Below are positions 3,700 through 47,778 of a stretch of 64,000 nucleotides of DNA, in pieces. Source of the DNA: Bacteroidales bacterium UBA1754 (lineage in GTDB: Bacteria; Bacteroidota; Bacteroidia; Bacteroidales; Paludibacteraceae); NCBI GenBank assembly GCA_002315615.1, contig DCHK01000069.1, forward strand, positions 5,333 through 69,332, given 5' to 3'. Both the position numbers and the translations under genes were made by a program. The notes under the pieces are model-generated. The model was given only the letters and a program-made list of their open reading frames with translations, made no database searches and was not told the origin of the DNA. Numbering within the stretch: position 1 is the first letter of the stretch; the number at the start of each line of letters is the position of its first letter.

Positions 3700-3731
3700 T
3701 TTTGTTTTAATTTGTTGAAAAACAACATTTT

Positions 3732-3767
3732 GTAGAGACGTCATATTATGGCGTCTCTACGTTTTTT
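3732..3767 (+). terminator. Rho-independent terminator of proC
   Basis: Stem gtagagacg (3732-3740) pairs with cgtctctac (3752-3760), followed by a T6 run. Confidence 0.7.
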
Positions 3768-3829
3768 ATACAAAAATCGCCGTAATAAACAATTGTTATT
3801 ACTTCCCTTCGGACAGTGTATGTTGATTC

Positions 3830-4573: not shown

Positions 4574-4604
4574 TCGGTATAATGTGTAATATAACCTACT
4601 TTGG

Positions 4605-4612
4605 CAAAGTTA
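4605..4612 (-). promoter_or_regulatory. Bacteroidota-type -7 promoter element (TAACTTTG) for the 3830-4573 gene
   Basis: The minus strand reads TAACTTTG, matching TAnnTTTG, 32 nt upstream of the ATG at 4573. Confidence 0.4.
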
Positions 4613-4702
4613 AGGAATTTTGTGAAAATGAGTACGAAATTGTTTAATTTTATTTCGAGATTAAAATTTAAATCGCTTCTTAATTTCAAATCAAAAAATC
4701 AC

Positions 4703-4710
4703 TAACTTTG
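4703..4710 (+). promoter_or_regulatory. Bacteroidota-type -7 promoter element (TAACTTTG) for the XRE-cupin / acyl-CoA synthetase operon
   Basis: TAnnTTTG match 23 nt upstream of the ATG at 4733. Confidence 0.45.
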
Positions 4711-4732
4711 TAGGTTAAAAAATGAATTCGTT

Positions 4733-5281: not shown

Positions 5282-5285
5282 GAGT

Positions 5286-6929
5286 ATGTTAGAGAAATTT
5301 CTTGAAAAAACACAGTTTACTTCTCAAGAAGATTTTGAGAAGAATTTGAAAATAAAAACACCCGAAAATTTCAATTTTGGATACGATGTAGTGGATGCGT
5401 GGGCTGAAGAATGTCCTAATAAACGTGCTTTGTGTTGGACAAACGACCACGGCAAGCACATCGACTTTACATACGCCGAATTGAAGAAAAAAACAGACCA
5501 AACAGCATCGTATTTTCAGTCGCTTGGCATTGGAAAGGGCGATATGGTGTTGCTCATCCTTAAACGTCGCTACGAGTTTTGGCTCTCAATCATTGCATTG
5601 CACAAAATTGGTGCAGTGGCAATTCCTGCTACGCACTTGCTCACCGAAAAAGACATTATTTATCGCTCCGAAGCGGCCACCATTAAAGCAATAGTTTGTG
5701 TGGGCGAAGATGTGGTGCTCGAACACGTGAAGAATGCGTTGCCTAAATGTCCGACGGTGAAAAACGTGATTTCTGTCGGTCCAAATATACCTGACGGATT
5801 TTTAGATTTTGAAAAGGGTATTTCTTCTGCTCCAACATTTGTTCCAAAAAGAGTTACCGAGAATCACGACATAATGTTGATGTATTTTACATCGGGTACA
5901 ACGGGAAATCCAAAAATGGTGATTCACGATTTTCTTTATCCTTTGGGACACGTCGTTACGGGTGCATTTTGGCACAATTTGAATGATGATAGTTTGCACC
6001 TTACGGTTGCCGATACTGGTTGGGGCAAAGCCGCTTGGGGAAAACTCTATGGACAAATGATAGCAGGGGCAACAATTTTTGTGTACGACCACGAGAAATT
6101 TACGCCTGCCGATATGCTTCAAATGATTCAAGACTATAAAATAACGTCATTTTGTGCGCCTCCTACAATTTTCCGTTTTATGATTTTGGAAGATTTAAGT
6201 AAATACGATTTGTCGTCGCTCAAATGGTGCACTATAGCAGGCGAGGCATTGAATCCAAGTGTTTACGAACAATTTTATAAACTTACGGGTGTGCGTATGC
6301 GCGAGGGATTTGGACAAACCGAAACTACTTGCACTGTGCTTACTACACCTTGGATGATGCCGAAACCAGGCTCAATGGGACGACCGAATCCCGCTTACAA
6401 TATCGACATTGTTGATGGCGAAGGAAATACTGTTGCCGATGGTATTCACGGAGAGATAGTTATTCGTGCTACGCAAGACAATAAGCCAAACGGATTATTT
6501 ATGGGTTATTATCGTGCCGAGGAACTTACAAAAAACGCTTGGCACGACGGCGTATATCACACTGGCGATGTGGCTTGGCGCGATGAGGATGGTTATTTCT
6601 GGTTTGTGGGCAGAAACGATGATGTGATTAAGTCTTCGGGTTACCGTATCGGACCATTTGAAGTTGAAAGTGCGCTGATGACTCACCCTGCAGTTGCGGA
6701 GTGTGCTATTACTGGCGTGCCAGACCCTGTTCGTGGTCAGGTGGTTAAAGCAACCATTGTGCTGAAAGAAGCGTATAAAGACAAAGCGGGCGAAGATTTG
6801 ATAAAGGAAATTCAAAACCACGTAAAACACACTACGGCACCTTACAAATATCCACGTGTAGTCGAGTTTGTAGATGTGCTTCCTAAAACTATTAGTGGTA
6901 AAATTAAGCGTGTTGAACTTCGCAAGTAA
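5286..6929 (+). CDS. AMP-dependent acyl-CoA synthetase (medium-chain/ACSM-like)
   Basis: 547 aa. AMP-binding motif YFTSGTTGNPK, then GYYR...TGD and the C-terminal LPKTISGKIKR. Confidence 0.88.
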   Translation: MLEKFLEKTQFTSQEDFEKNLKIKTPENFNFGYDVVDAWAEECPNKRALCWTNDHGKHIDFTYAELKKKTDQTASYFQSLGIGKGDMVLLILKRRYEFWLSIIALHKIGAVAIPATHLLTEKDIIYRSEAATIKAIVCVGEDVVLEHVKNALPKCPTVKNVISVGPNIPDGFLDFEKGISSAPTFVPKRVTENHDIMLMYFTSGTTGNPKMVIHDFLYPLGHVVTGAFWHNLNDDSLHLTVADTGWGKAAWGKLYGQMIAGATIFVYDHEKFTPADMLQMIQDYKITSFCAPPTIFRFMILEDLSKYDLSSLKWCTIAGEALNPSVYEQFYKLTGVRMREGFGQTETTCTVLTTPWMMPKPGSMGRPNPAYNIDIVDGEGNTVADGIHGEIVIRATQDNKPNGLFMGYYRAEELTKNAWHDGVYHTGDVAWRDEDGYFWFVGRNDDVIKSSGYRIGPFEVESALMTHPAVAECAITGVPDPVRGQVVKATIVLKEAYKDKAGEDLIKEIQNHVKHTTAPYKYPRVVEFVDVLPKTISGKIKRVELRK

Positions 6930-6945
6930 GTTGCTTGGTTATATG

Positions 6946-6985
6946 AACAAAAAATCCGATTGGAACAGCCAATCGGATTTTTTTT
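6946..6985. terminator. Bidirectional rho-independent terminator between the convergent acyl-CoA synthetase and thioredoxin-like genes
   Basis: A 13-bp stem, aaaatccgattgg (6951-6963) with ccaatcggatttt (6969-6981), has a 5-nt loop and flanking A- and T-runs. Confidence 0.75.
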
Positions 6986-7010
6986 GTTGTTTGTATGACT
7001 AATAGTCTTT

Positions 7011-7520
7011 TTACTTTTCTTGTTCTTTTGAATCTTTTGATTCTTTTTTCTGCGGATTTAGTAGAATTGTGTCAATAATATTTTTCAATGTTTCTTTGTC
7101 GAGTGCACCTTGCGAAATTCTTGGGTATTCTTTTAGTGGAAAATAAAACATTGTAGGAATACTGTGGATATTGAAAATTCTCGACAATTCTACGCTATTA
7201 GCATCTTCGGTGTTCACTTTGTAGAAAATCACTTTGCCTTCGTATTCTTTTGCCAATTCCTCCAATACGGGAGCCAATCTTCGGCAAGGTCCACACCACA
7301 CGGTGTAAAAATCAACTATGCAAGGTAGTTTTCCTTTGTATGTAATGCTTTCTGGATTTTTATTGTAGTCCCAAATGTATTCTCTAAATCCAAATCCATC
7401 GATGTGATTGACAGAGCCCTTAACCAATGGCGCAACTTTTACTTTTGCAGAATCGACTTGTGCAAAAACCGAAATTGCAGAAAGCAAGCAAACGCTTATT
7501 ATCAAAAATATCTTTTTCAT
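7011..7520 (-). CDS. Secreted thioredoxin-family protein (WCGPC active site)
   Basis: Signal peptide MKKIFLIISVCLLSAISVFA and the active site WCGPC. The ORF-track start at 7532 is TTG, so I use the ATG at 7520. Confidence 0.85.
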   Translation of the reverse strand: MKKIFLIISVCLLSAISVFAQVDSAKVKVAPLVKGSVNHIDGFGFREYIWDYNKNPESITYKGKLPCIVDFYTVWCGPCRRLAPVLEELAKEYEGKVIFYKVNTEDANSVELSRIFNIHSIPTMFYFPLKEYPRISQGALDKETLKNIIDTILLNPQKKESKDSKEQEK

Positions 7521-7569
7521 AAGTATTCTCAAATAGAACGTTCAAAGATAGTTTTTGGGACACAAATAA

Positions 7570-9369
7570 TCAATCTTTTTTCAATCTTTTTCTTTCCAAC
7601 TCGTCCAAAATAATCTTACGCATACGCATTGCGTGTGGTGTAATTTCCACGTATTCATCTTCTTTGATGTATTCCAATGCTTCTTCCAAACTGAACACTA
7701 CAGGTGGTGTAAGTACGGCTTTGTCGTCAGAACTTTTTGAACGCATATTGGTCAATTTCTTCGATTTTGTAACATTCACCACAAGGTCGCCTTCTTTGGT
7801 GTGTTCGCCAACCACTTGTCCAGCATAAACTTCTTCTTGTGGGAAGATGAAGAAACGACCGCGGTCTTGCAGTTTATCAAGGGCGTAAGCAAATGCCGTT
7901 CCGCCTTCCATTGCAATAATTGAACCATTTTTGCGGTTTTCAATATCGCCTTTGTAAGGTTGATATTCGAGGAATCGATGAGCAATAACTGCTTCGCCTG
8001 TAGATGCTGTAAGCAAATTGGTACGCAAACCGATGATACCGCGCGATGGAATTTCAAATTCCAAATGAATGCGGTCGCCTTTGCGCTCCATAGTTTTCAA
8101 ATCGCCTTTGCGAGTAGAAACTAATTCTATCATCTTGCCAGAAAATTCTTCGGGAACGTTGATGGTAAGTTGCTCAATTGGTTCGCATTTTTCGCCATCA
8201 ATTTCTTTGAAGATAACTTGTGGCTGACCAACTTGCAGTTCGTATCCCTCGCGACGCATTGTTTCGATAAGTACCGACAAATGCAACACACCACGACCAA
8301 ATACATTCCAACGGTCTGCAGTAGGGTCTTTTTCTACACGAAGTGCCAAGTTTTTGTCCAACTCTTTTATCAAACGCTCGTGTATGTGGCGCGAAGTAAC
8401 GAATTTTCCATCTTTTCCAAAGAAAGGAGAATCGTTGATGGCAAAAACCATACTCATAGTAGGTTCGTCGATAGCAATAGGAGGAAGTGGCTCTGGATTT
8501 ACGATGTCGCAAATGCTATCGCCAATTTCAAAACCTTCGATACCGATAAGTGCACAAATGTCGCCACACTGAACTGAACTCGTTTTTCTGCGTCCAAGTC
8601 CTTCAAAAGTATGCAGCTCGCGAATTTTTGATTTAATAATTTTTCCGTCGCGTTTTACGAGTGCAACGTCTTGTCCTTCTTTCAATTCGCCACGATGTAC
8701 ACGACCGATAGCAATACGACCTACGTAAGACGAGTAGTCGAGCGAAGTAATAAGCATTTGTGGTGTGCCTTCCAAAATTTGTGGTTCTGGAATATATTTG
8801 ATAATTGCATCGAGCAACGGAGTGATGCTGTCGGTTTGTTTTTTCCAATCGTCAGACATCCAATTTTGCTTTGCCGAACCATAGATTGTTGGAAAATCAA
8901 GTTGTTCTTCTGTTGCATCAAGGTTGAACATCAAGTCGAAAACTTCTTCTTGTACGATGTCTGGTCGGCAGTTTGGCTTGTCCACTTTGTTGATGACAAC
9001 GATGGGTTTCAGTCCGAGTTGAATGGCTTTTTGAAGCACAAAGCGTGTTTGTGGCATTGGTCCTTCAAAAGCATCAACCAAAAGTAAAACGCCGTCTGCC
9101 ATATTTAGCACACGTTCTACTTCGCCACCAAAATCGGCGTGTCCTGGGGTATCAATTATGTTGATTTTTACATCTTTATAGTTGATAGATACGTTTTTAG
9201 AAAGAATGGTTATACCACGTTCGCGTTCCAAATCGTTATTATCCATTATTAAATCGCCAGAATTTTCGTTTTCACGAATCAATTTTCCAGCCAAAATCAT
9301 TTTGTCAACCAATGTGGTTTTTCCGTGGTCGACGTGTGCAATAATAGCGATGTTTCTGATTTTTTGCAT
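7570..9369 (-). CDS. typA: Translational GTPase TypA/BipA
   Basis: [36 protein letters not shown] and NKVD G-motifs, with an EF-G-like domain order. The start is trimmed to the ATG at 9369; the upstream 25 codons are not conserved-looking. Confidence 0.95.
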
Positions 9370-9459
9370 AAGGGTTATTGTTTTGCAAATTGTGCCAAAA
9401 TAAATCTTAATAAAAGAAAGACTGCCTGATAGGACAGCCTTCAAACATATTAAAAAAAG

Positions 9460-9533
<74 letters not shown>

Positions 9534-9547
9534 AATTTTTCGTGGTG

Positions 9548-9555
9548 CAAAAGTA
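9548..9555 (-). promoter_or_regulatory. -7 promoter element (TACTTTTG) for tRNA-Arg
   Basis: TAnnTTTG match on the minus strand, ending 14 nt upstream of the tRNA 5' end. Confidence 0.45.
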
Positions 9556-9610
9556 CTACTTTTTTTTATATTAGGCAACGAGTTTTCGTATTTTTTTGAA
9601 AATATGAAAA

Positions 9611-10453
9611 TCAGTCGTTCCACAACGAAAAGTCGGCGTTTGCTTCAATTTTGTCTTGCAATTCTTTTGGTACGTTACTGAAAAAGTCAATTCCGGTAAG
9701 TTTCTCAATTTCATCTACGGTTTCAAAATTGTCTTTCATAAATTGTACGCCTGTGGTGTTTTGAAAGATAAATCCTATGGCTCGTTCTTTGCCTGGCGTC
9801 AGCACCATAATGACTTTATAAAAATGGTCGGGTAGTGCAATGTGTCTGTCGCCAATGTATATTGTTTTATGACTACCATCGTAGATTGGTCCACAGGCAA
9901 TGTATATTTCGCCCTCTTTTTTTGCCCATCGTCTGCACGCCATTTCGAGCGAGTTCCAGTCGCCTTCGTTCAAGTCTTCGTGTTGCGGACAAATGTTGCT
10001 CATCAAAAAACAATCGTCCATAGCCTGTTTGTCCCAACGCATATCTGCCGAAGGCGCCATGTGTCCGCGACTGTAGCCCGTGCCAGAATAGTCGTAGTAC
10101 TGAACTTGGTATTGCTCGGGCAAAGTGGTGTCGGCAGTGAAAAAGTTTGAACGTGGCACGACTTTGTTCTCTACTTCTTCCCTCGTCAAGCACCACGCAA
10201 CCCAGTTTGCACAAAGCGTTTCTTTGTTGAACGAGATTGTAAATCCTTTGTGCTCAATTATTTCTGATGGTGTTTTCTTGTCTATGATTTGTGGAATTTC
10301 ATATTTTGTTTCGTTGCCGTCTTTTTGCAGATTGCAATCGCGCTGTGTTTCTGTTTTGGCTGTGGCAAAGTTGCACGATGCGAAAAGCAGAAAAGAGGCA
10401 ATGCTAACCGACAAAAAGTTTGCGATTTTGTGGCAATATGAAATCATAAACAT
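9611..10453 (-). CDS. Secreted DNA/RNA non-specific endonuclease (EndoG/NucA family) lipoprotein
   Basis: The active-site motif SRGHMAP matches the DRGH motif of beta-beta-alpha-Me nucleases. Lipoprotein-like signal FLLFASCNF. The start is trimmed to the ATG at 10453 (or 10447), because the longer ORF would overlap prfC. Confidence 0.85.
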   Translation of the reverse strand: MFMISYCHKIANFLSVSIASFLLFASCNFATAKTETQRDCNLQKDGNETKYEIPQIIDKKTPSEIIEHKGFTISFNKETLCANWVAWCLTREEVENKVVPRSNFFTADTTLPEQYQVQYYDYSGTGYSRGHMAPSADMRWDKQAMDDCFLMSNICPQHEDLNEGDWNSLEMACRRWAKKEGEIYIACGPIYDGSHKTIYIGDRHIALPDHFYKVIMVLTPGKERAIGFIFQNTTGVQFMKDNFETVDEIEKLTGIDFFSNVPKELQDKIEANADFSLWND

Positions 10454-10460
10454 ATTGGTG

Positions 10461-12035
10461 TTAAAATTCTGACGTAAAATGGAAACGGATATTTTTGAAA
10501 TCGTTTTGTGCCATTTGCAATACATAGTTCGAATCGGCAAGGAAAACATCGCGGTCGTCTTTGTCTTTTGCCATATATTGGAACTTGCGTTTTTTGAAAT
10601 TTTCGAGTTCCGTTTGGTCATCGCTTTCTATCCAACACGCTTTGAACATTGGTAATGGCTCCCAACGACATTTTGCACCATACTCGTGCAACAATCTGTA
10701 CTGAATAACTTCGAACTGAAGTTGACCAACAGTACCGATAATTTTTCGTCCATTAAACTGATTGACAAACATTTGTGCTACGCCTTCGTCCATCAATTGA
10801 TGAATACCTTTGTCGAGTTGTTTCACTTTCATTGGGTCTTCATTTTCAAGGTATTTGAACATTTCTGGTGAGAAACTTGGCAGACCTTTGAAATGCAGAT
10901 TTTCGCCCGACGAAAGCGAATCGCCAATTTTGAAATTGCCTGTATCTGGAAGTCCTACAATGTCGCCTGCAAACGCTTCTTCTACAGTTTCTTTCTTTTG
11001 TGCCATAAAGCAAGTTGGAGCAGAAAATTTCATTAGTTTACCGAAACGAACGTGTTTGTAATTGACATTTCGCTCGAATTTTCCTGAGCAAATTTTCACG
11101 AAAGCAATGCAACTGCGGTGATTTGGGTCCATATTGGCGTGAATTTTGAACACAAAACCCGAAAATGCGTCTTCGTTAGGATTTACTACTCGTTCTTGTG
11201 CCTCGACTGGTTGAGGCGAAGGTGCGATTTTTACAAAGCAATCGAGCAATTCTTTAATTCCAAAGTTGTTCAAAGCCGAACCGAAAAACACAGGTGCAGT
11301 TTCGCCCTTCAAGTATTCCTCGGTAGAAAAATCGGAATAAACACCATTGATAAGTTCCAAATCTTCGCGAAGTTTTTCGGCATCGGCATCGCCAATGTTT
11401 GTTTCGAGTTCGTTGCTGTTTATGTCGATGGCAATTGCTTTGCTCACTGTTTGTTTGCTTGGCGTGTATAGATTCAGTTTTTGCTCGTAAATATTGTACA
11501 CACCTTTGAAATTGATGCCCATATTGATAGGCCAACTTAGCGGACGGACTTTTATGCCCAATTCTGCTTCAATCTCGTCGAGCAAGTCGAAAGCATCGCG
11601 TCCTTCGCGGTCCATTTTGTTGATGAAAACAATGACAGGTGTATTTCGCATACGGCACACGTTCATCAGTTTGCGCGTTTGTGCTTCCACACCTTTGGCT
11701 GAATCTATTACGATAATTACGCTATCGACGGCTGTAAGTGTACGGAAAGTATCTTCGGCAAAGTCTTGGTGTCCAGGTGTGTCGAGAATGTTAATTTTGT
11801 AATCATCGTATTCAAAACCCATAACGGATGTTGCCACAGAAATACCACGTTGTTTTTCTATCTCCATCCAGTCCGAAGTGGCAGTTTTTTTAATTTTGTT
11901 AGATTTTACCGCACCAGCCACGTGTATTGCGCCACCAAAAAGCAAAAGTTTTTCGGTAAGTGTAGTTTTTCCCGCATCAGGGTGACTGATGATGGCAAAT
12001 GTTCTGCGTCGTTTGATTTCTTCTTGAAAATCCAT
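10461..12035 (-). CDS. prfC: Peptide chain release factor 3
   Basis: [30 protein letters not shown] and NKMD G-motifs, with RF3-type length. The start is trimmed to the ATG at 12035 ([16 protein letters not shown]), which also removes the overlap with the upstream symporter gene. Confidence 0.95.
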
Positions 12036-40991: not shown

Positions 40992-42644
40992 ATGATAAAA
41001 GAAAATTTTATAGAACTTTTTCAAAAGAGTTTCGTTACTAACTGGGATTTTCCCGCTTATACTGATTATGGTACGAGTGTGAATTTTTCTTATGCTCAAT
41101 TGGCTGCAGAAGTTGCAAAAAAACATATCCTATTCGAAAAGTTGGGAATAAAAAAAGGCGACAAAATTGCACTGATTGGCACAAATTCTTCCGAGTGGGC
41201 AATAACCTATGTGGCAACTGTAACTTATGGCGCCGTAATTGTTCCGATTCTCCCAGATTTCAATCCAAATGATGTTCATCAAATTGTAAATCATTCCGAT
41301 TCAAAAATTTTGTTCTCTACCAAAAGAATATGGGATACATTGCAAGAAGAGAAACTGCATAATATTTTGGCGGTTTATTCTTTGAATGACAAGAATTTAC
41401 TTTATGCTGTCGATAATGCAACTTCTATCTCTCGTGATGAAATTGAAAAGCTTTTTGCCGAGAAATATGCAAACGGATTTTCGAAAGATGATGTAGTTTA
41501 TGCAAAAGTTGACAATTCAGAACTTGTTTCAATAAACTATACTTCTGGTACAACAGGCTTCAGCAAAGGTGTGATGATGAGTGCCAATAATTTGGCAGGA
41601 AATGTGGCATTTGGAATTGGTACACGTTTTTTGCGTCAAGGCGAAAATGTGCTGAGTTTCTTGCCACTATCTCATGCGTATGGTTGTGCGTTCGAGTTTC
41701 TTACAGCCACAGTTTGTGGTAGCCATGTGTATTTTTTTGGAAAAATTCCTGCTCCAAAATTACTCATCAAAGCATTGCAAGATGTTAAGCCTGTACTGAT
41801 TGTTTCTGTACCTCTTATATTTGAAAAAATTTATAGAAACAACATCAAACCGCAATTGGAAACTACCAAGATGCGTTTTGCGTTGAATATTCCATTTTTG
41901 CGCACAAAAATATACAACGAAATTTGCGAAAAACTGATTGCTACGCTTGGCGGAAATTTCAGAGAAGTAATTATTGGTGGCGCTGCGCTGAATAAGGAAG
42001 TAGAAGAATTTCTTATGAAAATTAAATTTCCATTTACTGTAGGTTATGGAATGACAGAATGCGGTCCGCTTATTGCGTACAGCCGATGGCAAGATTATAA
42101 GTCAGGTTCGTCTGGAAAAGTGCTTGATACGATGGAAGTGAAAATTTTGTCGAACGACCCACAAAACGAAGTTGGCGAAATACTTACGCGTGGCGAAAAT
42201 GTGATGATGGGATATTATAAGAACGACGACAAAACGAGTGAAGTGATTGACGAAGATGGTTGGCTTCATACGGGCGACCTTGGTGTGCTTTCTGCCGATG
42301 GCGATGTGTATATTCGTGGCAGAAACAAATCGATGATACTTGGTGCAAATGGTCAAAATATCTATCCGGAAGAGATAGAGGCAAAATTGAATAATATGCC
42401 ATACGTAATGGAAAGTTTGGTGGTAGAACACGATGGTAAACTTTTTGCGCTTGTCTATCCCGAGGCTGATGAAACAATGAATGAGGACAATTTGAAATTG
42501 ATTATGGATGAGAATCTTAAGAATCTAAATCAAATTGTAGCGCCATACGAAAAGGTGTCTCAAATAAGAATTTATCCTCACGAGTTCGAGAAGACTCCTA
42601 AAAAGAGTATCAAGCGTTATTTGTATAATAAAGTGCTTGATTGA
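40992..42644 (+). CDS. Long-chain-fatty-acid--CoA ligase (AMP-binding)
   Basis: 550 aa. AMP motif YTSGTTGFSKGV, GYGMTE, GWLHTGD, and the insertion typical of FACS-type ligases. Confidence 0.88.
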   Translation: MIKENFIELFQKSFVTNWDFPAYTDYGTSVNFSYAQLAAEVAKKHILFEKLGIKKGDKIALIGTNSSEWAITYVATVTYGAVIVPILPDFNPNDVHQIVNHSDSKILFSTKRIWDTLQEEKLHNILAVYSLNDKNLLYAVDNATSISRDEIEKLFAEKYANGFSKDDVVYAKVDNSELVSINYTSGTTGFSKGVMMSANNLAGNVAFGIGTRFLRQGENVLSFLPLSHAYGCAFEFLTATVCGSHVYFFGKIPAPKLLIKALQDVKPVLIVSVPLIFEKIYRNNIKPQLETTKMRFALNIPFLRTKIYNEICEKLIATLGGNFREVIIGGAALNKEVEEFLMKIKFPFTVGYGMTECGPLIAYSRWQDYKSGSSGKVLDTMEVKILSNDPQNEVGEILTRGENVMMGYYKNDDKTSEVIDEDGWLHTGDLGVLSADGDVYIRGRNKSMILGANGQNIYPEEIEAKLNNMPYVMESLVVEHDGKLFALVYPEADETMNEDNLKLIMDENLKNLNQIVAPYEKVSQIRIYPHEFEKTPKKSIKRYLYNKVLD

Positions 42645-42717
42645 TAGGTTGTTGAATAAAAAATAAAAGTTTTTGAAAAAAAACATTTATTTTGTGAACA
42701 ATGTAAAAAAAACCTAT

Positions 42718-42725
42718 TATCTTTG
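42718..42725 (+). promoter_or_regulatory. -7 promoter element (TATCTTTG) for the small lipoprotein gene
   Basis: TAnnTTTG match 58 nt upstream of the ATG at 42783. Confidence 0.4.
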
Positions 42726-42782
42726 CAGTGATTTTAGAAAAGAGTTAATGTTAATTGTTTAATTATTAAAAACTAAGTAAAA

Positions 42783-42983
42783 ATGAAAAAGTTAATGTTG
42801 TTTTTCGCTGTTGCAACTGCTGTGTCTTTTGCATCTTGTGGTTCAAAACAAGCTGAAGCTACTGAAGAAGTAATCGATTCTGCTGCTGTTGTTGCTGAAG
42901 AAGTAATTGATTCTGCTGCTATCGTTGCTGATTCTGTTGTTGCAGAAGTTGTTGATTCAGCTGTTGCTGTAGTTGCTGAATAA
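42783..42983 (+). CDS. Small acidic repeat lipoprotein (66 aa)
   Basis: Lipobox-like signal MKKLMLFFAVATAVSFASCGS. The mature part consists only of A/V/E/D/S/I with an EEVIDSAAxVA repeat. It has its own promoter box and a strong terminator. Confidence 0.6.
   Translation: MKKLMLFFAVATAVSFASCGSKQAEATEEVIDSAAVVAEEVIDSAAIVADSVVAEVVDSAVAVVAE
42864..42929 (+). repeat. 2 x 33-bp in-frame tandem repeat inside the lipoprotein gene (a degenerate third unit follows)
   Basis: gaagaagtaatcgattctgctgctgttgttgct (42864-42896) versus gaagaagtaattgattctgctgctatcgttgct (42897-42929). Confidence 0.8.
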
Positions 42984-43000
42984 TTCAGTAAAAACAGACA

Positions 43001-43036
43001 AAAAAAATAGGTCGCTTTTTAGCGACCTATTTTTTT
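43001..43036. terminator. Bidirectional rho-independent terminator between the lipoprotein gene and the convergent methyltransferase gene
   Basis: Stem aataggtcgc (43006-43015) pairs with gcgacctatt (43022-43031), flanked by an A7 run and a T-run. Confidence 0.7.
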
Positions 43037-43062
43037 ATGCCCACTTTTATGGTGGTTGCAGT

Positions 43063-44226
43063 CTAATCAAAGTCAAACAATGAAGGTTCATTAGTTGGCA
43101 TAAATTTCTTGAATGAAATAGGCAAACAGGTGTTCTCTAAACTTTTTTGTGAAAATAAAAATCTGCCATCACAAATAAATCCCAGTTCATACCAATTTAC
43201 TTGATTTAGTTCTTTGCATACTTCTTCGATGTCTATTTTTTGATTTTTTGGGAAAATGGCTAAAATAGAACCATCATAATTTTTACATTCGTGTGTAAAA
43301 AACGGAGTTTTATTTCTTGTCTTGGCATTTACATATATTCTTTTTTCGTTTGAGATATAATGATTTCTTCCCCATTGCCACCAATTGCTTTCATCAAACT
43401 TTTTGATACCTCTGTTTAGTAATTCTTCTTTATGACCAAACAAGAATTCGTTTGTTGTGTTGTAAATCATACGTTTTGTATTTCCTGTCTTGGCAGTAAA
43501 TGAGCAAACAAAATCAGTATTACCAAATTCTTCATTTGTGAAGATATTATCAGCACCACTGACAGCTCCTACTTTTACAAAAAATAAATTTTTGAAACGT
43601 AAAGGGTATGAGTTGTCGGTAAACATAAGTTGCCCATTGCTGCAGATAAATTCTTTTGTTATATTTGTTTTTCTACTAAAATTGTTTTTCTCAAAACGGA
43701 AAATAACACAATTGGGGTTGAAACCTTTGAAAATTCGCTGGTCACCTAAGTCTATTAAATCTGTAATTGTACCGTTCTCGTATATAAATTGATTTAATTT
43801 TATGCTTGATGTTGCTTTGAAAAAATCTCTCGGAGTGATAAATATCAGTTCTCCATGTTCGGTTAAATGATAGATACACTTTTCGATAAAAAACAAGTAA
43901 AGATTGCTTCGCTCATCAAATAATCTTGATCTTAGTTTCTTTTTCGTGCTTACTTCAATATCTTGATAACGTACGTACGGAGGATTCCCGATTATTGTAT
44001 CAAATTTTTCTGAAATTGGATAATCAAAGAAATCCATATTTAAGGCATTGTTTGGACAATGAATTTTGTCATATTCTATGCCTACGCAATTTGGGATTTC
44101 ATTGAAAAATGCGCCGTCGCCACAAGAAGGCTCTAAAATGCGACCATCGTTTTTTCTCAAAGTGAGCATTTCTGCAACAATACTTTGTGGGGTAAATACT
44201 TGCCCTAAATTTTCAACATTATACAT
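43063..44226 (-). CDS. Type II N6-adenine DNA methyltransferase (gamma class, TaqI/Eco57I-like)
   Basis: 387 aa. Motif order GQVFTP (X), ILEPSCGDGAF (I, SAM binding), IIGNPPYVRY (IV, catalytic), then a C-terminal target-recognition region. No N-terminal HTH. Confidence 0.88.
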   Translation of the reverse strand: MYNVENLGQVFTPQSIVAEMLTLRKNDGRILEPSCGDGAFFNEIPNCVGIEYDKIHCPNNALNMDFFDYPISEKFDTIIGNPPYVRYQDIEVSTKKKLRSRLFDERSNLYLFFIEKCIYHLTEHGELIFITPRDFFKATSSIKLNQFIYENGTITDLIDLGDQRIFKGFNPNCVIFRFEKNNFSRKTNITKEFICSNGQLMFTDNSYPLRFKNLFFVKVGAVSGADNIFTNEEFGNTDFVCSFTAKTGNTKRMIYNTTNEFLFGHKEELLNRGIKKFDESNWWQWGRNHYISNEKRIYVNAKTRNKTPFFTHECKNYDGSILAIFPKNQKIDIEEVCKELNQVNWYELGFICDGRFLFSQKSLENTCLPISFKKFMPTNEPSLFDFD

Positions 44227-44875
44227 ATTCAGGGAAGTATTTTTTGAAATTGAAATAAATGTCAGAACGAAGTTTAATAGACTCGCCCAAAGTTCCTAAA
44301 ATTAACTTCGCTGCATCAAAAAAATCTCTATGATAAACTTCTCTATTACAATTCCATTTACATTGAAAAGGAAGATTGTTGCCATTTGGAGTTAGTGTTT
44401 TTATTCCTTTTAGGGTAGTGCAGAAAACATCAGAAAAATCTTGTTTATTTACAATTAAGAAAAAATAATCTTTGTCTTTTTTGTGCCCAAAGTTTTCTGC
44501 CAATTTTTGAAAATAAGGCAACCATGAAATTTCATTACCGAACGAAGGTTTTATGCCTGTTAATGCATAAAATATACCTAACTTGCAATTAAGATTATCT
44601 GCATGAGTGGTGTCGGTAACTTTTATGTTTATTGGAATAAATTCCTTTGTTTTGGTATTCTCAATTACCAAGTCGTACCATTCTCTTGCATTTGGTCGAC
44701 TAAGGGAATATCCATTTTCAAAATTGTAACTACTTTCTAAAAAATTGAGAATTTCATCTTCATTTATAGCGGAGTTTATTCTTCCGTCTTGTGTTGTTTT
44801 AGAAAGCGAAAGTTCTTTGCTATTAGAAAGAAACTCGCAAATGTTGGATAAAATTTTGGGGACTGCGTTTTCCAT
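44219..44875 (-). CDS. Putative Type II restriction endonuclease partner of the methyltransferase
   Basis: 218 aa. It overlaps the methyltransferase start by 8 nt. A possible PD-(D/E)XK-like core is REWYDLVI...PINIKVTD. There is no recognisable family, so the assignment rests mainly on operon context. Confidence 0.55.
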   Translation of the reverse strand: MENAVPKILSNICEFLSNSKELSLSKTTQDGRINSAINEDEILNFLESSYNFENGYSLSRPNAREWYDLVIENTKTKEFIPINIKVTDTTHADNLNCKLGIFYALTGIKPSFGNEISWLPYFQKLAENFGHKKDKDYFFLIVNKQDFSDVFCTTLKGIKTLTPNGNNLPFQCKWNCNREVYHRDFFDAAKLILGTLGESIKLRSDIYFNFKKYFPEYV

Positions 44876-44878
44876 TTT

Positions 44879-44908
44879 GATTGATAGCTTTGCGCATTAC
44901 TATCAATC
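44879..44908 (-). promoter_or_regulatory. Perfect 9-bp inverted repeat (GATTGATAG-N12-CTATCAATC) ending 3 nt upstream of the endonuclease start codon
   Basis: 44879-44887 is the exact reverse complement of 44900-44908. It could be an operator or a hairpin that occludes translation initiation. Confidence 0.4.
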
Positions 44909-44915
44909 CGACGAG

Positions 44916-45124
44916 AACGCAAAAAAGAAAGGTGTGAAGTTTCTTATTGCGTTACCAAGGCAACCCTGCAAGGAAACCTTCGCCCTCAAATAAGACACTC
45001 ACACCAATCGGTGTAAGCATCACTATTAAATTAAGGGCGAAAGAAGTACCTATACAAGATATTCTTTCATTTATTATTTCTGTGTTTTATTTCCGTAAAA
45101 GTTTGCAGGGTTTTCGGTAAACGC
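44916..45124 (-). ncRNA. Candidate structured RNA or long structured 5' leader of the R-M operon (strand assignment tentative)
   Basis: Nested perfect helices found by hand: 44962-44971/45103-45112 (10 bp), extended by 44949-44956/45116-45124 (8 bp, one bulge); 44979-44986/45034-45041 (8 bp); an apical hairpin 45001-45005/45010-45014; and a separate hairpin 44916-44922/44947-44953 with inner 44925-44930/44940-44945. No credible ORF. Confidence 0.35.
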
Positions 45125-45140
45125 GAAATAATAGCTAATG

Positions 45141-45148
45141 CAAATTTA
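45141..45148 (-). promoter_or_regulatory. -7 promoter element (TAAATTTG) that would start a transcript about 260 nt upstream of the endonuclease gene
   Basis: TAnnTTTG match on the minus strand, just downstream of the DUF3791-like gene stop at 45165. Confidence 0.35.
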
Positions 45149-45164
45149 TAATATGTATATTAGT

Positions 45165-45404
45165 TCAAATTTTCTGTTTCTTGTTGTTTTCTTCTAAAAA
45201 TTCTTCATATAGTGCGACATTTCCCAAATGCCAGAATTTAGTTTCTTCATTTTCTAATTTATAGTACGTTTCGGAACAATAAAAATCGTGTAAGGCTTGC
45301 ATCGAAGAAATGTGTTTTTCTTCGGCAATCAATTGTGCCACAGCAGAGATTTTGCCAGGTAAAAGTAGAAACAAATTTCCATTTGTAATAGTTGGGATAG
45401 TCAT
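45165..45404 (-). CDS. Small DUF3791-like protein (79 aa)
   Basis: ATGA overlap with the upstream DUF3990 gene. The helical pattern SMQALHDFYCSETYYKLENEETKFWHLGNVALYEEFLEE resembles the second type of DUF3791 proteins found next to DUF3990. Confidence 0.6.
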   Translation of the reverse strand: MTIPTITNGNLFLLLPGKISAVAQLIAEEKHISSMQALHDFYCSETYYKLENEETKFWHLGNVALYEEFLEENNKKQKI

Positions 45405-45877
45405 GATTTTATCAATTTTGCTTCTATAAAAGTTAAACTTTGCAAAGCCTTTTGCGTATGAAATAAAATTTGATCTACCAAATCGTATGTTTTTAGTTGC
45501 AAAATGAGTGTCGGTTTGTCAATGAAACCTTGCTCGTACAACGAAAAGCATGCATAAACACGGTCATTAGCAACGGGTCCCAAAACGACATCATATTCGT
45601 GAGAAAATCCTTTTTGCGTTCTGTTTTTCATCACGAAATCAATCCATTGTTCGTTTGGTTTTTCAAAAATATTTTTTTTCAAAATAAAGTTTTCGTCCCA
45701 ATTGTATATGTTCACGTATCCAATATTTGATGTTTGAGTAAGCTTTCTGCGCACCCAACTTTCGGCTTGCTCAAAACTTGTGGTTGTATAAAAACCTGCA
45801 CCAAAATCAAGTGTGCGATTAGGTGGTAGTATTTGTGGTTTTTCTACAATGTTGGTACTTCCGTGATATATTATCAT
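45401..45877 (-). CDS. DUF3990 family protein with an ADP-ribosyltransferase-like H-Y-E motif pattern
   Basis: 158 aa. MIIYHGS, LDFGAGFYTTTSFEQA and FSHEYDVVLGPVAND. The HGS and GFYTT motifs are the family signature as I recall it. Confidence 0.7.
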   Translation of the reverse strand: MIIYHGSTNIVEKPQILPPNRTLDFGAGFYTTTSFEQAESWVRRKLTQTSNIGYVNIYNWDENFILKKNIFEKPNEQWIDFVMKNRTQKGFSHEYDVVLGPVANDRVYACFSLYEQGFIDKPTLILQLKTYDLVDQILFHTQKALQSLTFIEAKLIKS

Positions 45878-46086
45878 TGTTGGTTGTTGATTAAATTATC
45901 TATTTCTTCCATCAACCATTGCGCGCTTTGAGTGTGCAATATCTCGTAATTTTTGCTAAGGTAAGAGATAATATCGTATTTTTCAAAAAGTTCGAGCGTG
46001 TTTTTCCCATCAAGGTGTTTGTGCACTTTGTATTGTTCTATACAAAACGAAACAAAAAATAATATTTCACTTTCATTGTTCTTCAT
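45874..46086 (-). CDS. DUF3791 family protein (70 aa)
   Basis: ILFFVSFCIEQYKVHKHLDGKNTLELFEKYDIISYLSKNYEILHTQS matches the DUF3791 pattern. ATGA overlap with the DUF3990 gene. It starts 9 nt after the amylase gene stop. Confidence 0.7.
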   Translation of the reverse strand: MKNNESEILFFVSFCIEQYKVHKHLDGKNTLELFEKYDIISYLSKNYEILHTQSAQWLMEEIDNLINNQQ

Positions 46087-46095
46087 TGTTGTTTT

Positions 46096-47778
46096 TTAGA
46101 ACTTGTATTTCAAAATTTTCCCACTTTGTGCAGGCAAACTAACCTGAATGTGGCGCGTGAAATTTTCTTCTTTGCTGTTTTTGTCGAGCAAATTAACGGT
46201 TTTTCCCTTTTGCGCAGTTTCTATGTGTAAGAAATCAAGCACTTCGTCGGTAATATCTACAATGATTTCTGCTTCTTTATTGTTAAAATTGGCAACAACC
46301 ATAATTACTTCTTTGCCAGCGCAACGCAAAAATGCGTATTGATGTGCACTGTCGAAAAATGGATTTTCGTAGTTTAGCCACATCAAATCGTAAAAAACGC
46401 CTTCGCGTAATGCCTTTTCGCTATTAAGCAGTGGTATCAGTGTAGTGTAGAACTTGCGAATTTCTTTTTCGCTTTCGGTGAGTAGTTTTTCGTTGAAGTT
46501 GCCATTGTTTATCCATCGTGTAACGCAATCTACATTCCAATAGTCGAAAATGGTGGTGCGTCCGTCCAAACCACTGAAACCTTCTTTATTCATTCCCGCT
46601 TCTCCGAGTTCTTGCCCGAAGTAGAGTAGAAACGGATTTTTATTCATTGTGGCTGATACGATATTTGCTGCAAAACCCGCTTTTGCATTTTGTGCGAAAA
46701 AGTCTGAGGCAATACGTTGCTCGTCGTGGTTTTCAAGGAAATTGAGCATTCGTTCTTGTATGCCTTCATTGCTTTTCCAACAATTACTGATGTTGCTTGT
46801 CGGCGTTTCGCCTCGTGTAGCAGCACGCAGTGTATCGTAAAGTCCTACTTTGTCATATAAGTAGTCAAAATTGCCGTAATCCAAGAAGTTGCGATAAATG
46901 TTTGGATTGTAATTTTCTGCAATAAAAATAATTTTTGGGAATGCTTTTTTTACTTCGGCAATTGCCCAATGCCAAAATTCCACAGGAACCATTTCTGCCA
47001 TATCGCAACGAAATCCATCTACGCCTTTGGCTGCCCAAAAGAGCAAAATGTTGCACATTTTTTGCCAAGTGTCAGGAATTGGGTCGAAACAACGTTCGCC
47101 AGTGAAATAATTTATGCCATAATTTAGTTTTACGGTTTCGTACCAATCGTTGATGCTTGGGTGTGCGTGAAAACAATCGTTGCCTGTTGCTTTTGCTGGC
47201 ATTTCGAGATAATCGCCTTGTTGCTCATCGTGCAAACTGAACTGTGGAGCAAATGCTTCATTTTGAATGTAATAAAAATTATTGTGTGGAGCAAAACCTA
47301 AGTTTTGATTGTCAGTTTCGCCAAGGTCGTTGGTGCGTTTGTAGCGACTATCAGAATAATATTCGCGCGCCACGTGGTTTGGTACAAAATCTATGATAAC
47401 TTTCAAATCTGCGGCGTGCGAACGCTCAAGCAAATCTTCGAATTCGCTCATTCTTTTCTTTACGTTTTCTGCCAAGTCGGGCGAAACATCATAGTAGTCT
47501 TTCACTGCGTATGGCGAGCCTGCTTTCCCTTTTACTACTGCAGGGTGGTTGCGCTTGATGCCGTACGCTGTATAGTCGGTTTGTGTGGCGTGTTCTAATA
47601 TACCAGTGTACCAAATGTGGGTGAATCCCATCTTTTTTATCTCGGTGAGTGCTTTTTCGGTGAAAGCGTTAAATTTTCCGCAACCATTTTCTTCTATTGT
47701 GCCGTTTTCTATATTGGCATTTTTCTTGTTTCCAAAAAGTCGTGTAAACACTTGGTATATAACTACTTTTTCGCTCAT
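46096..47778 (-). CDS. GH13 alpha-amylase family protein (cytoplasmic)
   Basis: 560 aa with no signal peptide. VIYQVFTRLFGN, DFVPNH, GFRCDMAEMV and ENHDEQR are GH13 regions I-IV. Confidence 0.88.
   Translation of the reverse strand: MSEKVVIYQVFTRLFGNKKNANIENGTIEENGCGKFNAFTEKALTEIKKMGFTHIWYTGILEHATQTDYTAYGIKRNHPAVVKGKAGSPYAVKDYYDVSPDLAENVKKRMSEFEDLLERSHAADLKVIIDFVPNHVAREYYSDSRYKRTNDLGETDNQNLGFAPHNNFYYIQNEAFAPQFSLHDEQQGDYLEMPAKATGNDCFHAHPSINDWYETVKLNYGINYFTGERCFDPIPDTWQKMCNILLFWAAKGVDGFRCDMAEMVPVEFWHWAIAEVKKAFPKIIFIAENYNPNIYRNFLDYGNFDYLYDKVGLYDTLRAATRGETPTSNISNCWKSNEGIQERMLNFLENHDEQRIASDFFAQNAKAGFAANIVSATMNKNPFLLYFGQELGEAGMNKEGFSGLDGRTTIFDYWNVDCVTRWINNGNFNEKLLTESEKEIRKFYTTLIPLLNSEKALREGVFYDLMWLNYENPFFDSAHQYAFLRCAGKEVIMVVANFNNKEAEIIVDITDEVLDFLHIETAQKGKTVNLLDKNSKEENFTRHIQVSLPAQSGKILKYKF

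What the first reader, a model, noticed from the sequence alone, without database searches (positions are those of the whole stretch)
45165..46086. Coupled DUF3791 / DUF3990 / DUF3791-like trio: candidate ADP-ribosyltransferase-fold toxin with two small helical partners
Three minus-strand ORFs of 70, 158 and 79 aa overlap by exactly 4 nt (ATGA) at both junctions (45874-45877 and 45401-45404), so they must be expressed together. The middle protein begins MIIYHGS, continues LDFGAGFYTTTSFEQA and later FSHEYDVVLGPVAND. The order and context H-G-S, G-F-Y-T-T, E-Y parallel the H-Y-E triad of PARP/DarT-type ADP-ribosyltransferases (PARP has HGS, GIYFA and NEY). I recognise the families as DUF3990 and DUF3791, and I know of no experimentally defined function for either. 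The cassette combines a small enzyme-like core, two tiny helical partners and tight coupling. It is AT-rich and sits directly beside an R-M operon. All of this fits a toxin-antitoxin or abortive-infection type module.
Basis: partly seen in the sequence, partly recalled or inferred. Interest (0 to 1): 0.75.

Follow-up and report, generated by a model that had tools for sequence, protein, structure and literature searches.

The report
Three-gene ADP-ribosyltransferase-like toxin cassette (PDC-M13)
Three tightly coupled small genes beside a restriction-modification operon encode an enzyme with the fold of ADP-ribosylating toxins plus two small, distantly related helical partner proteins; this cassette is already listed as an untested candidate anti-phage system (PDC-M13), is common in gut Bacteroidales and on plasmids, and has no experimentally shown function.

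Summary
There are three minus-strand ORFs of 70, 158 and 79 aa with ATGA overlaps. They are DUF3791 (A), DUF3990 (B) and a Pfam-orphan protein (C). PADLOC-DB already lists this trio as the candidate defence system PDC-M13, and Pfam places DUF3990 in its ADP-ribosyltransferase clan, so it is a new member of a catalogued but uncharacterised kind.

New results here:
- The AlphaFold model of B (pLDDT 90) matches RES, ParT, PARP1 and ART-PolyVal folds.
- H5 and Y30 are nearly invariant across the family.
- A and C are distant paralogs (hhalign 89%, controls below 3%).
- A and C are fused into one protein on pBF9343-type Bacteroides plasmids. A is fused to an Xre HTH in another locus.
- Gene order is permuted (A-B-C, B-C-A, C-A-B).
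- The trio lies next to rep genes on small plasmids. In Moraxella it is embedded, with 4-nt overlaps, between hsdM and hsdS of a type I R-M operon.

Best reading (about 0.55): a tripartite toxin-antitoxin or abortive-infection module in which an A-C pair restrains an ART-fold toxin. Toxicity, substrate and anti-phage activity remain untested.

The parts
45874..46086 (-). Gene A: 70-aa acidic helical protein of family DUF3791. Proposed toxin-binding (antitoxin) subunit.
   Evidence: Pfam PF12668, E 2.6e-18. PADLOC PDC-M13A, E 1.1e-31. Conserved upstream of B in 78 of 80 loci. Fused to an Xre-type HTH_3 domain in L051. pI 4.96.
45401..45877 (-). Gene B: 158-aa DUF3990 protein with an ADP-ribosyltransferase fold and an H5 / Y30 / D96 triad. 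Proposed toxin or effector.
   Evidence: Pfam PF13151, E 7.7e-48. PADLOC PDC-M13B, E 3.8e-60. AF2 pLDDT 89.7, pTM 0.82. Foldseek matches RES, PARP1 and ParT and ART-PolyVal, DarT and Arr. Family conservation of H5, Y30, R86, D96, G100 and Q136.
45165..45404 (-). Gene C: 79-aa acidic all-helical protein with no Pfam family. It is a distant paralog of A and the proposed second partner subunit.
   Evidence: No Pfam hit. PADLOC PDC-M13C, E 8.4e-30. The family has 3042 proteins, and none of the 120 listed carries a Pfam domain. AF2 pLDDT 87, helices only. No PDB fold match. hhalign A vs C 89% with controls at or below 2.9%. Fused N-terminally to A in pBF9343-type plasmids and in L099.
45874..45877 (-). 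ATGA stop/start overlap between A and B.
   Evidence: Read from the sequence. The same 4-nt overlap occurs in 52 of 78 related loci.
45401..45404 (-). ATGA stop/start overlap between B and C.
   Evidence: Read from the sequence. The same 4-nt overlap occurs in 67 of 78 related loci.
44219..44875 (-). Neighbouring gene (context): 218-aa endonuclease-like protein, the likely restriction enzyme of a type II R-M pair.
   Evidence: phrog_3978 endonuclease, E 7.9e-24. Overlaps the methylase gene by 8 nt.
43063..44226 (-). Neighbouring gene (context): 387-aa N6-adenine DNA methyltransferase (type II).
   Evidence: Pfam Eco57I, E 1.4e-22, and N6_Mtase. PADLOC MTase_II, E 6.6e-158. Strong terminator-like hairpin at 43036-43001.
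42600..46100 (.). Low-GC islet holding the R-M pair and the trio, lying between an AMP-dependent ligase gene and an alpha-amylase gene.
   Evidence: GC 0.30-0.34 against 0.38-0.42 in the flanks. Flanking genes.

Best explanation
The three genes form one self-contained, translationally coupled module of the toxin-antitoxin / abortive-infection type.

B (DUF3990) is an ART-fold enzyme with an H-Y-D active site. It uses NAD+ to ADP-ribosylate an essential cellular or phage target. A nucleic acid is a reasonable guess for this clade, but the substrate is unknown.

A (DUF3791) and C are small acidic paralogs. They act together, probably as a pseudo-symmetric A-C pair bound to B that keeps it inactive. 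In some lineages A also carries an Xre HTH domain that would autoregulate the operon.

Loss of the element, or a phage-induced disturbance, would free B. That would give plasmid or islet stabilisation and possibly abortive infection. This would explain why the cassette sits next to or inside R-M operons.

Shown here: gene structure, family membership, fold, conserved residues, paralogy of A and C, the fusions, and the genomic contexts. Inferred only: NAD+ use, toxicity, neutralisation by A-C, the trigger, and the defence phenotype.
For: - The trio is one conserved unit. It is present in 77 of 80 genome loci, with 4-nt overlaps.
- All three families persist across Bacteroidota, Bacillota, Fibrobacter and Moraxella, with permuted orders. 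In the pooled genome and IMG/VR loci the counts are A-B-C 109, B-C-A 7 and C-A-B 1.
- A C-A fusion protein of 149 aa replaces the two small genes on pBF9343 and in L099, and many similar Bacteroides plasmids carry a closely related B gene.
- An HTH_3-DUF3791 fusion sits upstream of DUF3990 in L051. This is the classic type II antitoxin layout.
- B has the ART fold with H5, Y30 and D96 in the canonical strand positions.
- DUF3990 is the C-terminal domain of T6SS Rhs proteins (PMC4524185; PMC10763514). That position normally holds a toxin, but the papers state that the function of this domain is unknown.
- The module is on 88 plasmids. In C. botulinum pCLI it lies directly after the replication gene, and in a 7.6-kb Phocaeicola plasmid about 1 kb downstream of it.
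- It is embedded hsdM-B-C-A-hsdS with 4-nt overlaps in Moraxella pNP7-2, and it is adjacent to a type II R-M pair in the window.
- It matches the PADLOC candidate PDC-M13. Such candidates are defined by embedding in known defence loci.
- Neighbours differ from genome to genome, as expected for a mobile cassette.
- A and C are acidic, pI about 5.
Against: - No experiment exists for any member. PDC-M13 has not been tested in the papers I could search.
- Foldseek support for the ART fold is moderate: best PDB E-value 2e-3, TM 0.45-0.49. There is no sequence-level PDB hit.
- Only roughly one in ten immediate neighbours of homologues hits a defence model (my estimate from a partial list); most are housekeeping genes.
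- Solo DUF3990 genes without detectable A or C exist, for example Geobacillus virus E3 gp30 and 9 other loci. So B is not always restrained by these partners, or is not always toxic.
- No A-B-C complex could be modelled, so physical interaction rests on genomic inference alone.
- No clear promoter or operator was found. Only 9 nt separate the amylase stop codon from the A start codon.
Confidence: 0.55

Rival explanations
1. B is an NAD+ glycohydrolase rather than a transferase. Once released from A-C it depletes cellular NAD+, as the RES toxins do, and arrests growth or aborts infection.
For: The best PDB fold matches are the Pseudomonas putida RES toxin of the Xre-RES system (9r35 and 6gw6, probability 0.99). 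From my own knowledge, RES toxins degrade NAD+ and NAD+ depletion is a common defence outcome. The module architecture and contexts fit this reading as well as they fit a transferase.
Against: B has an H-Y-D triad in the positions of the PARP / DarT-type H-Y-E transferases, not the R-E-S residues of RES. There is no Pfam RES hit. The sub-threshold sequence relatives are ART-PolyVal and PARP. ParT, another close fold match, is named an ADP-ribosylating toxin in its PDB entry.
Confidence: 0.15
2. The cassette is purely an addiction or stabilisation module of plasmids and genomic islets, with no role in phage defence. Its position beside R-M genes only reflects shared insertion hot-spots for mobile DNA.
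For: It is found on 88 plasmids, including 7.6-23 kb plasmids where it lies beside or about 1 kb from the replication gene. In the chromosomal loci most immediate neighbours are housekeeping or variable surface genes, with few defence genes. The window copy sits in a low-GC islet.
Against: In Moraxella pNP7-2 the trio is inserted between hsdM and hsdS with 4-nt overlaps at all four junctions. That is operon-level integration into a defence system, not mere proximity. The PADLOC authors selected PDC families for recurrent embedding in defence loci. Homologues also occur in phage-like contigs.
Confidence: 0.15
3. B is not a self-directed toxin. It is a modifying enzyme that mobile elements use against the host or rival elements, for example in anti-restriction or host takeover, like the ART-PolyVal domains of phage and conjugative polyvalent proteins. 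A and C would be specificity or regulatory subunits.
For: The nearest sequence and fold relatives are ART-PolyVal domains of phage polyvalent proteins. Solo DUF3990 genes occur in phage genomes, such as Geobacillus virus E3 gp30. The module is frequent on conjugative and mobilisable plasmids.
Against: Most copies are chromosomal, in non-mobile contexts of gut Bacteroidales. An HTH-A fusion and small acidic partner proteins with translational coupling are typical of toxin-antitoxin pairs. DUF3990 sits in the C-terminal position of Rhs effectors, where these proteins normally carry an antibacterial toxin.
Confidence: 0.1

Closest known systems
PADLOC phage defence candidate PDC-M13 (with the related PDC-M10 and PDC-M42 models)
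   Same: All three window proteins hit the three PDC-M13 component models strongly: A 1.1e-31, B 3.8e-60 and C 8.4e-30. They are contiguous on one strand. This is the same system.
   Different: PDC-M13 is only a bioinformatic candidate. No phenotype or mechanism is on record. PADLOC's A/B/C labels mix gene orders, so they are not consistent with the roles proposed here.
Xre-RES and ParS-ParT toxin-antitoxin systems (ART-fold toxins)
   Same: They are the best solved-structure matches to B. Each has a small ART-fold toxin of about 150 aa encoded next to a small antitoxin that can carry an Xre HTH, as the HTH-DUF3791 fusion in L051 does.
   Different: B has H-Y-D, not R-E-S, and gives no RES Pfam hit. 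The partners are DUF3791-type helical proteins, not the Xre/COG5642 (DUF2384) type. Here there are two paralogous partners instead of one.
DarT-DarG
   Same: DarT is an H-Y-E-clade ART toxin used in phage defence (my knowledge). A phage DarT appears among the weak BFVD fold matches (E 0.64, probability 0.33).
   Different: There is no DarT (DUF4433) Pfam hit. No macrodomain antitoxin is present. A and C are 70-80-aa helical proteins with no sign of enzymatic reversal.
ART-PolyVal domain (PF18760) of phage and conjugative-element polyvalent proteins
   Same: It is the closest Pfam family by sequence: 14 of 51 diverse DUF3990 members hit it, best E 2.8e-4. It is also close by fold in BFVD.
   Different: The hits are below threshold and cover only the N-terminal part (about residues 1-50 in the one match examined). 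ART-PolyVal is a domain of very large multidomain proteins, not a stand-alone protein with two small partners.
Rhs / T6SS effectors with a C-terminal DUF3990 domain (Serratia Rhs5, Enterobacter RhsA)
   Same: They carry the same Pfam domain in the position where Rhs proteins carry their toxin (PMC4524185; PMC10763514; PMC12165300).
   Different: In those proteins the domain is delivered between cells and is paired with a downstream immunity gene. I could not test whether that immunity protein is DUF3791-like. The activity of the domain is described as unknown there too.
CmdTAC (PD-T4-9) tripartite ART toxin-antitoxin-chaperone system
   Same: It is a three-gene module built around an ADP-ribosyltransferase toxin that acts in abortive infection (my knowledge of the published system).
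   Different: None of the three proteins hit PD-T4-9 models in PADLOC. The two partners here are paralogs of each other, not an antitoxin plus a SecB-like chaperone.

Membership tests
Pfam DUF3990 (PF13151) | Full-length match to the family HMM above the gathering score (32.2 bits). | tested here: met
   162.5 bits, E 7.7e-48, residues 1-150 against profile positions 1-152 of 152.
Pfam DUF3791 (PF12668) | Match to the family HMM above the gathering score (25 bits), for ORF1 (A). | tested here: met
   66.2 bits, E 2.6e-18.
Pfam DUF3791 (PF12668) | Match to the family HMM above the gathering score, for ORF3 (C). | tested here: not met
   No Pfam hit even at E 10, and none of the 120 listed C-family proteins carries PF12668. 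Remote homology shows only with deep profiles: hhalign 89%, score 32.4, against a control maximum of 14.7. C is therefore a sister family, not a member under Pfam's criterion.
ADP-ribosyltransferase superfamily, H-Y-[E/D/Q] clade | The ART split beta-sheet fold. | tested here: met
   AF2 model pLDDT 89.7. The top PDB matches are all ART-fold proteins (RES, PARP1, ParT, PltA), but with moderate scores: E 2e-3 to 0.4, TM 0.45-0.49. BFVD matches include ART-PolyVal, Arr and DarT. Pfam lists DUF3990 in its ART clan.
ADP-ribosylyltransferase superfamily, H-Y-[E/D/Q] clade | A conserved His in strand 1 and a conserved Tyr in the following core strand (the NAD+-binding positions). | tested here: met
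   H5 in 108 of 113 and Y30 in 110 of 113 representatives below 50% identity. H5 lies in strand 2-7 and Y30 in strand 28-32.
ADP-ribosyltransferase superfamily, H-Y-[E/D/Q] clade | A conserved acidic or Gln catalytic residue at the start of the later core strand. | tested here: met
D96 is invariant (113 of 113) and lies directly before strand 97-101.
ADP-ribosyltransferase superfamily, H-Y-[E/D/Q] clade | NAD+-dependent ADP-ribosyl transfer, or NAD+ hydrolysis. | not testable with these tools
   This needs biochemistry. No report was found for any DUF3990 protein.
PADLOC PDC-M13 candidate system | Three adjacent genes matching the three component HMM groups. | tested here: met
   A 1.1e-31, B 3.8e-60, C 8.4e-30. 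The genes are contiguous and on the same strand.
PADLOC PDC-M13 candidate system | Anti-phage activity. | not testable with these tools
   Never reported. PDC-M13 was not among the candidates tested in PMC12881386.
Type II toxin-antitoxin system | A toxic protein neutralised by direct binding of a co-encoded labile protein, with autoregulation by the antitoxin. | not testable with these tools
   Indirect support only: an HTH_3-A fusion, a C-A fusion, a position next to plasmid rep genes, acidic partner proteins and translational coupling.
Xre-RES / ParST (RES-domain toxins) | The RES domain with its Arg-Glu-Ser active-site residues. | tested here: not met
   No RES Pfam hit in the window protein or in 51 diverse members. 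The conserved residues are H, Y and D. The similarity is at fold level only.
DarTG | A DarT (DUF4433) toxin with a macrodomain antitoxin, DarG. | tested here: not met
   No DarT or macrodomain Pfam hit in any of the three proteins. The partners are helical proteins of 70-79 aa.
CmdTAC (PD-T4-9) | Matches to the PD-T4-9 component models, with a SecB-like chaperone as the third gene. | tested here: not met
   The PADLOC scan returned only PDC-M13, PDC-M10 and PDC-M42 models.

The most novel reading that the evidence does not exclude
DUF3990 with its DUF3791 and C partners is a widespread, so far uncharacterised class of tripartite ART-based immunity or addiction module. In it a pseudo-dimeric pair of paralogous mini-proteins (A-C, sometimes fused into one chain) cages an H-Y-D ADP-ribosyltransferase. 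The pair releases the enzyme when the neighbouring R-M system is disabled, when the element is lost, or when a phage factor appears. The enzyme then ADP-ribosylates a nucleic acid or the translation machinery. Because the system is abundant in rumen Bacteroidales and sits on the pBF9343 plasmid family, it would be a major undescribed player in gut phage-plasmid-host conflicts.
Probability: 0.35. Interest if true: 0.7.

Novelty: new member of a known kind. Interest (0 to 1): 0.5.

Why it matters
DUF3990/DUF3791 modules are very common. One survey counted 3324 PDC-M13 loci in 6530 rumen genomes, among the most frequent defence-type loci there. They sit on the classic Bacteroides fragilis plasmid pBF9343 and many relatives, and on Clostridium botulinum and C. 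tetani plasmids. Even so, nobody has shown what they do.

If the proposed mechanism holds, it adds a new ART toxin family with an unusual two-paralog antitoxin. It would also give a handle on plasmid maintenance and phage resistance in gut Bacteroidales.

The present analysis turns a vague DUF trio into concrete experiments:
- The catalytic residues to mutate are H5, Y30 and D96, not E94.
- The natural C-A fusion can be used as a single-chain antitoxin.
- The Moraxella hsdM-B-C-A-hsdS operon can be used to test coupling to restriction.

Tried and rejected
1. Direct BLASTP of A against C found nothing. Shallow profile comparisons gave 2-13% probability. I had provisionally rejected the 'DUF3791-like' label, until more diverse profiles built from 160-170 loci gave 89% with clean controls.
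2. Sequence searches of PDB with B, with a diverse B profile, and with the A and C profiles found only chance-level hits.
3. Foldseek of the C model against PDB gave no meaningful match (best E 4.8). The faint sigma-4 and LuxR HTH hits are not evidence of DNA binding.
4. A word-indexed homologue search with the single C sequence returned only C itself. C's relatives had to be collected from the loci of B homologues.
5. NCBIfam and PHROGs have no models for any of the three proteins.
6. E94 as the catalytic residue was rejected on conservation.
7. I tested neighbourhood enrichment for defence genes among 125 immediate neighbours. Only a few PADLOC hits appeared (PDC-S01, PDC-S11, PDC-S27, PD-T4-2, PD-T4-6, mad6, DolB, Vsr), and I had no proper background. 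This is inconclusive rather than supportive.
8. Promoter and terminator scans gave nothing convincing upstream of A. There is only a weak sigma-70-like site and a near-match to the Bacteroidetes -7 motif, plus a weak hairpin at 45021-44994 downstream of C.
9. The Aravind ART review could not be retrieved under the id I remembered.
10. Membership of DarTG, RES/ParT and CmdTAC was considered and rejected on their defining features.
Full report
**Observation.** The window carries three minus-strand ORFs: 45874-46086 (70 aa, here A), 45401-45877 (158 aa, B) and 45165-45404 (79 aa, C). Both junctions are ATGA stop/start overlaps. Pfam assigns A to DUF3791 (E 2.6e-18) and B to DUF3990 (E 7.7e-48, full length). 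C has no Pfam hit. NCBIfam and PHROGs have nothing for any of the three. Gene callers on three other assemblies of the same organism call the same three genes.

The trio lies in a low-GC islet (0.30-0.34 against 0.38-0.42) of about 3.5 kb. The islet also holds a type II R-M pair: an endonuclease-like gene at 44219-44875 and an N6-adenine methylase at 43063-44226. It sits between an AMP-dependent ligase gene and an alpha-amylase gene.

**Already catalogued.** PADLOC-DB v2 models match all three proteins as the components of one candidate system, PDC-M13: A 1.1e-31, B 3.8e-60 and C 8.4e-30. B also hits PDC-M10A and PDC-M42A. PDC systems are candidates proposed from recurrent embedding in known defence loci. 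Several PDCs have been tested, but PDC-M13 is not among them. The only paper in the library that names it merely counts it, at 3324 loci in 6530 rumen genomes.

DUF3990 is listed among the families of Pfam's ART clan (PMC7955679). It occurs as the C-terminal domain of T6SS Rhs proteins, where its function is called unknown (PMC4524185, PMC10763514, PMC12165300). DUF3791 appears in one unrelated paper. So the families and the three-gene system are known as bioinformatic objects, but no function has been shown.

**The trio is one conserved unit.** A scan of one genome per species found 525 loci encoding B relatives. In the best 80 (56-69% identity, mostly gut and rumen Bacteroidales, plus Fibrobacter and some contigs binned as Firmicutes), 77 have both a 70-80-aa gene upstream and a 70-79-aa gene downstream. 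The A-B overlap is exactly 4 nt in 52 of 78 loci and the B-C overlap in 67 of 78. A and C are each about 46% identical to the window copies and have their own invariant residues. The C family has 3042 members in the protein collection, and none of the 120 listed carries a Pfam domain.

**B has an ART fold with an H-Y-D triad.** AlphaFold2 with 67 homologues gives pLDDT 89.7 and pTM 0.82.
- Foldseek against PDB returns only ART-fold proteins at the top: P. putida RES toxin (E 2e-3, probability 0.99, TM 0.45-0.49), PARP1 catalytic domain, ParT and EcPltA.
- Foldseek against BFVD returns Geobacillus virus E3 gp30 (a DUF3990 homologue), ART-PolyVal proteins, Arr and DarT.
- Of 51 diverse family members, 14 give sub-threshold Pfam hits to ART-PolyVal and one to PARP.
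- Sequence searches of PDB find nothing.

Across 112 representatives below 50% identity, these residues are invariant or nearly so: H5, G6, D24, F25, G26, G28, F29, Y30, T32, Q37, A38, F71, W78, R86, D96, G100, A103, D105 and Q136. H5 lies in strand 2-7 (YHGS, like PARP's HGS). Y30 lies in strand 28-32 (GFYTT). D96 immediately precedes strand 97-101, which is the position of the catalytic Glu in PARP-type enzymes.

**A and C are paralogs that work together.** BLASTP and shallow profiles see no similarity between them. I collected more diverse loci from IMG/VR (128 matches, 80 kept, 27-59% identity) and iterated HMMs for A and C over all loci. The resulting profiles (Neff 4.8 and 6.0) align over 59-72 columns without gaps at 89% probability and score 32.4. 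Reversed and 30 column-shuffled controls reach at most score 14.7, or 2.9%.

Both partner families are found with B in almost every locus, but in different orders: A-B-C 109, A-B-C-C 16, A-B-C-A 12, B-C-A 7, C-A-B 1, and nine apparently solo B genes.

Two fusions are informative:
- In L099, in pBF9343 of B. fragilis NCTC 9343 and in a 7.6-kb Phocaeicola plasmid, a single 149-aa protein carries a C domain followed by an A domain directly upstream of B. Roughly forty more Bacteroides, Phocaeicola and Parabacteroides plasmids encode a closely similar B, but I did not inspect their partner genes.
- In a second, divergent trio in L051, A is fused to an Xre-type HTH_3 domain (E 1.7e-14). The downstream 73-aa gene there is a C homologue (hhalign 89%).

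C is predicted to be all-helical (pLDDT 87) and has no PDB fold relative. A and C are acidic (pI about 5), while B is near neutral.

**Context.** tblastn finds the module on 88 plasmids.
- In C. botulinum pCLI (17.5 kb) an A-B-C trio directly follows the replication gene.
- In a 7.6-kb mobilisable Phocaeicola plasmid the CA-B pair lies about 1 kb downstream of rep, with three small genes between them.
- On pBF9343 it sits beside a zeta-toxin gene.
- On Moraxella osloensis pNP7-2 a B-C-A trio is inserted between hsdM and hsdS of a type I R-M operon, with 4-nt overlaps at all four junctions.

In the chromosomal loci the immediate neighbours are heterogeneous. A few are defence-type (PDC-S01, PDC-S11, PDC-S27, PD-T4-2, PD-T4-6, mad6, DolB, Vsr), two are integrases and two are IS200 transposases. 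The rest are housekeeping or surface proteins. This shows a mobile, self-contained cassette, but it is not a demonstration of defence-island enrichment.

No convincing promoter was found. Only 9 nt separate the amylase stop codon from the A start codon. There is a weak hairpin at 45021-44994 and a Bacteroidetes-type TAAATTTG at 45141-45148, downstream of C and upstream of the R-M genes.

**Interpretation.** The anatomy fits a tripartite toxin-antitoxin or abortive-infection module best:
- B is an ART-fold enzyme whose family also supplies the C-terminal (toxin-position) domain of Rhs effectors.
- Two small acidic partners are translationally coupled to it.
- The partners can be fused to each other, or to an Xre HTH as in classical antitoxins.
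- The module sits at stabilisation-type positions on plasmids and inside or beside R-M operons.

I infer that A and C form a pseudo-symmetric pair that binds and blocks B, and that B uses NAD+ to modify an essential target once released. None of these biochemical steps has been shown.

The rivals are:
- an NADase mode, suggested by RES being the top fold match;
- a pure addiction role without defence;
- an offensive or anti-restriction role like ART-PolyVal, hinted at by solo phage copies such as Geobacillus virus E3 gp30.

**Comparison and membership.** The window trio is a member of PDC-M13, DUF3990 and DUF3791 by their HMM criteria. C is not a Pfam DUF3791 member, only a remote paralog. B meets the fold and motif criteria of the H-Y-[E/D/Q] ART clade, but its activity is untested. 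It is not DarTG (no DUF4433 domain, no macrodomain). It is not a RES/ParT toxin (no RES domain, different catalytic residues). It is not CmdTAC (no PD-T4-9 model hits).

**Verdict.** Novelty is 'new member of a known kind'. Interest is moderate (0.5). The module is widespread and has never been tested. The paralogy of A and C, the C-A and HTH-A fusions, the H-Y-D triad and the embedding in a type I R-M operon together make it directly testable.

Noticed in passing
window 43063-44875 (- strand): A type II R-M pair. A 218-aa endonuclease-like protein (phrog_3978, no Pfam hit) overlaps by 8 nt a 387-aa gamma-class N6-adenine methylase (NPPY motif; PADLOC MTase_II, E 6.6e-158). A strong terminator-like hairpin follows at 43036-43001. 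The specificity is unknown.
   Followed up: partly
window 42600-46100: A low-GC islet (0.30-0.34 against 0.38-0.42) holds the R-M pair and the trio, between an AMP-dependent ligase gene (40992-42644, +) and an alpha-amylase gene (46096-47778, -). No integrase or tRNA was seen at its edges in the ORF lists. I did not compare it with a genome that lacks the islet.
   Followed up: partly
L051 1075-2185 (- strand): A second, divergent trio sits in the same Alistipes contig as a first one. It has an HTH_3(Xre)-DUF3791 fusion (142 aa), a DUF3990 protein (155 aa, 36% identical to the window B) and a 73-aa C homologue. Two paralogous systems therefore lie 4 kb apart.
   Followed up: yes
L164 (pBF9343, NC_006873.1) 2555-4615: On B. 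fragilis plasmid pBF9343 the C-A fusion and DUF3990 pair is followed by an 86-aa hypothetical protein and a zeta-toxin family gene. This suggests two addiction-type modules side by side. In the 7.6-kb Phocaeicola plasmid (L165) related 86-aa proteins flank the CA-B pair on both sides, and no zeta toxin is annotated there.
   Followed up: partly
L168 (Moraxella osloensis pNP7-2) 4454-11482: The operon reads hsdM, DUF3990, C, DUF3791, hsdS with 4-nt overlaps at every junction, followed by hsdR. A small HTH regulator precedes it. It is a textbook case of a module embedded in a type I R-M operon.
   Followed up: yes
L167 (Geobacillus virus E3) 2471-3079: The 141-kb phage encodes a solo 202-aa DUF3990 homologue, gp30 (E 6.8e-31 to my B profile). 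No A or C partner was detected. It lies next to an integrase-like gene. The adjacent 54-aa gp31 looks faintly A/C-like by eye but did not score.
   Followed up: partly
L111-L121, L126 and L134-L149 (IMG/VR contigs): Four-gene variants occur, A-B-C-A' and A-B-C-C'. The extra 112-aa protein carries a conserved acidic C-terminal tail (ISEEE..RRLGITE.DLVGF.DVEIE) after either an A-like or a C-like domain. B is longer in these loci (190-193 aa).
   Followed up: no
whole window: The Bacteroidetes -7 promoter motif TAnnTTTG occurs 119 times, against 86 +/- 9 in shuffles (maximum 114). This fits a Bacteroidota origin for the window. The organism itself was not identified: the best B homologues in the species-representative genomes are only 69% identical.
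   Followed up: partly
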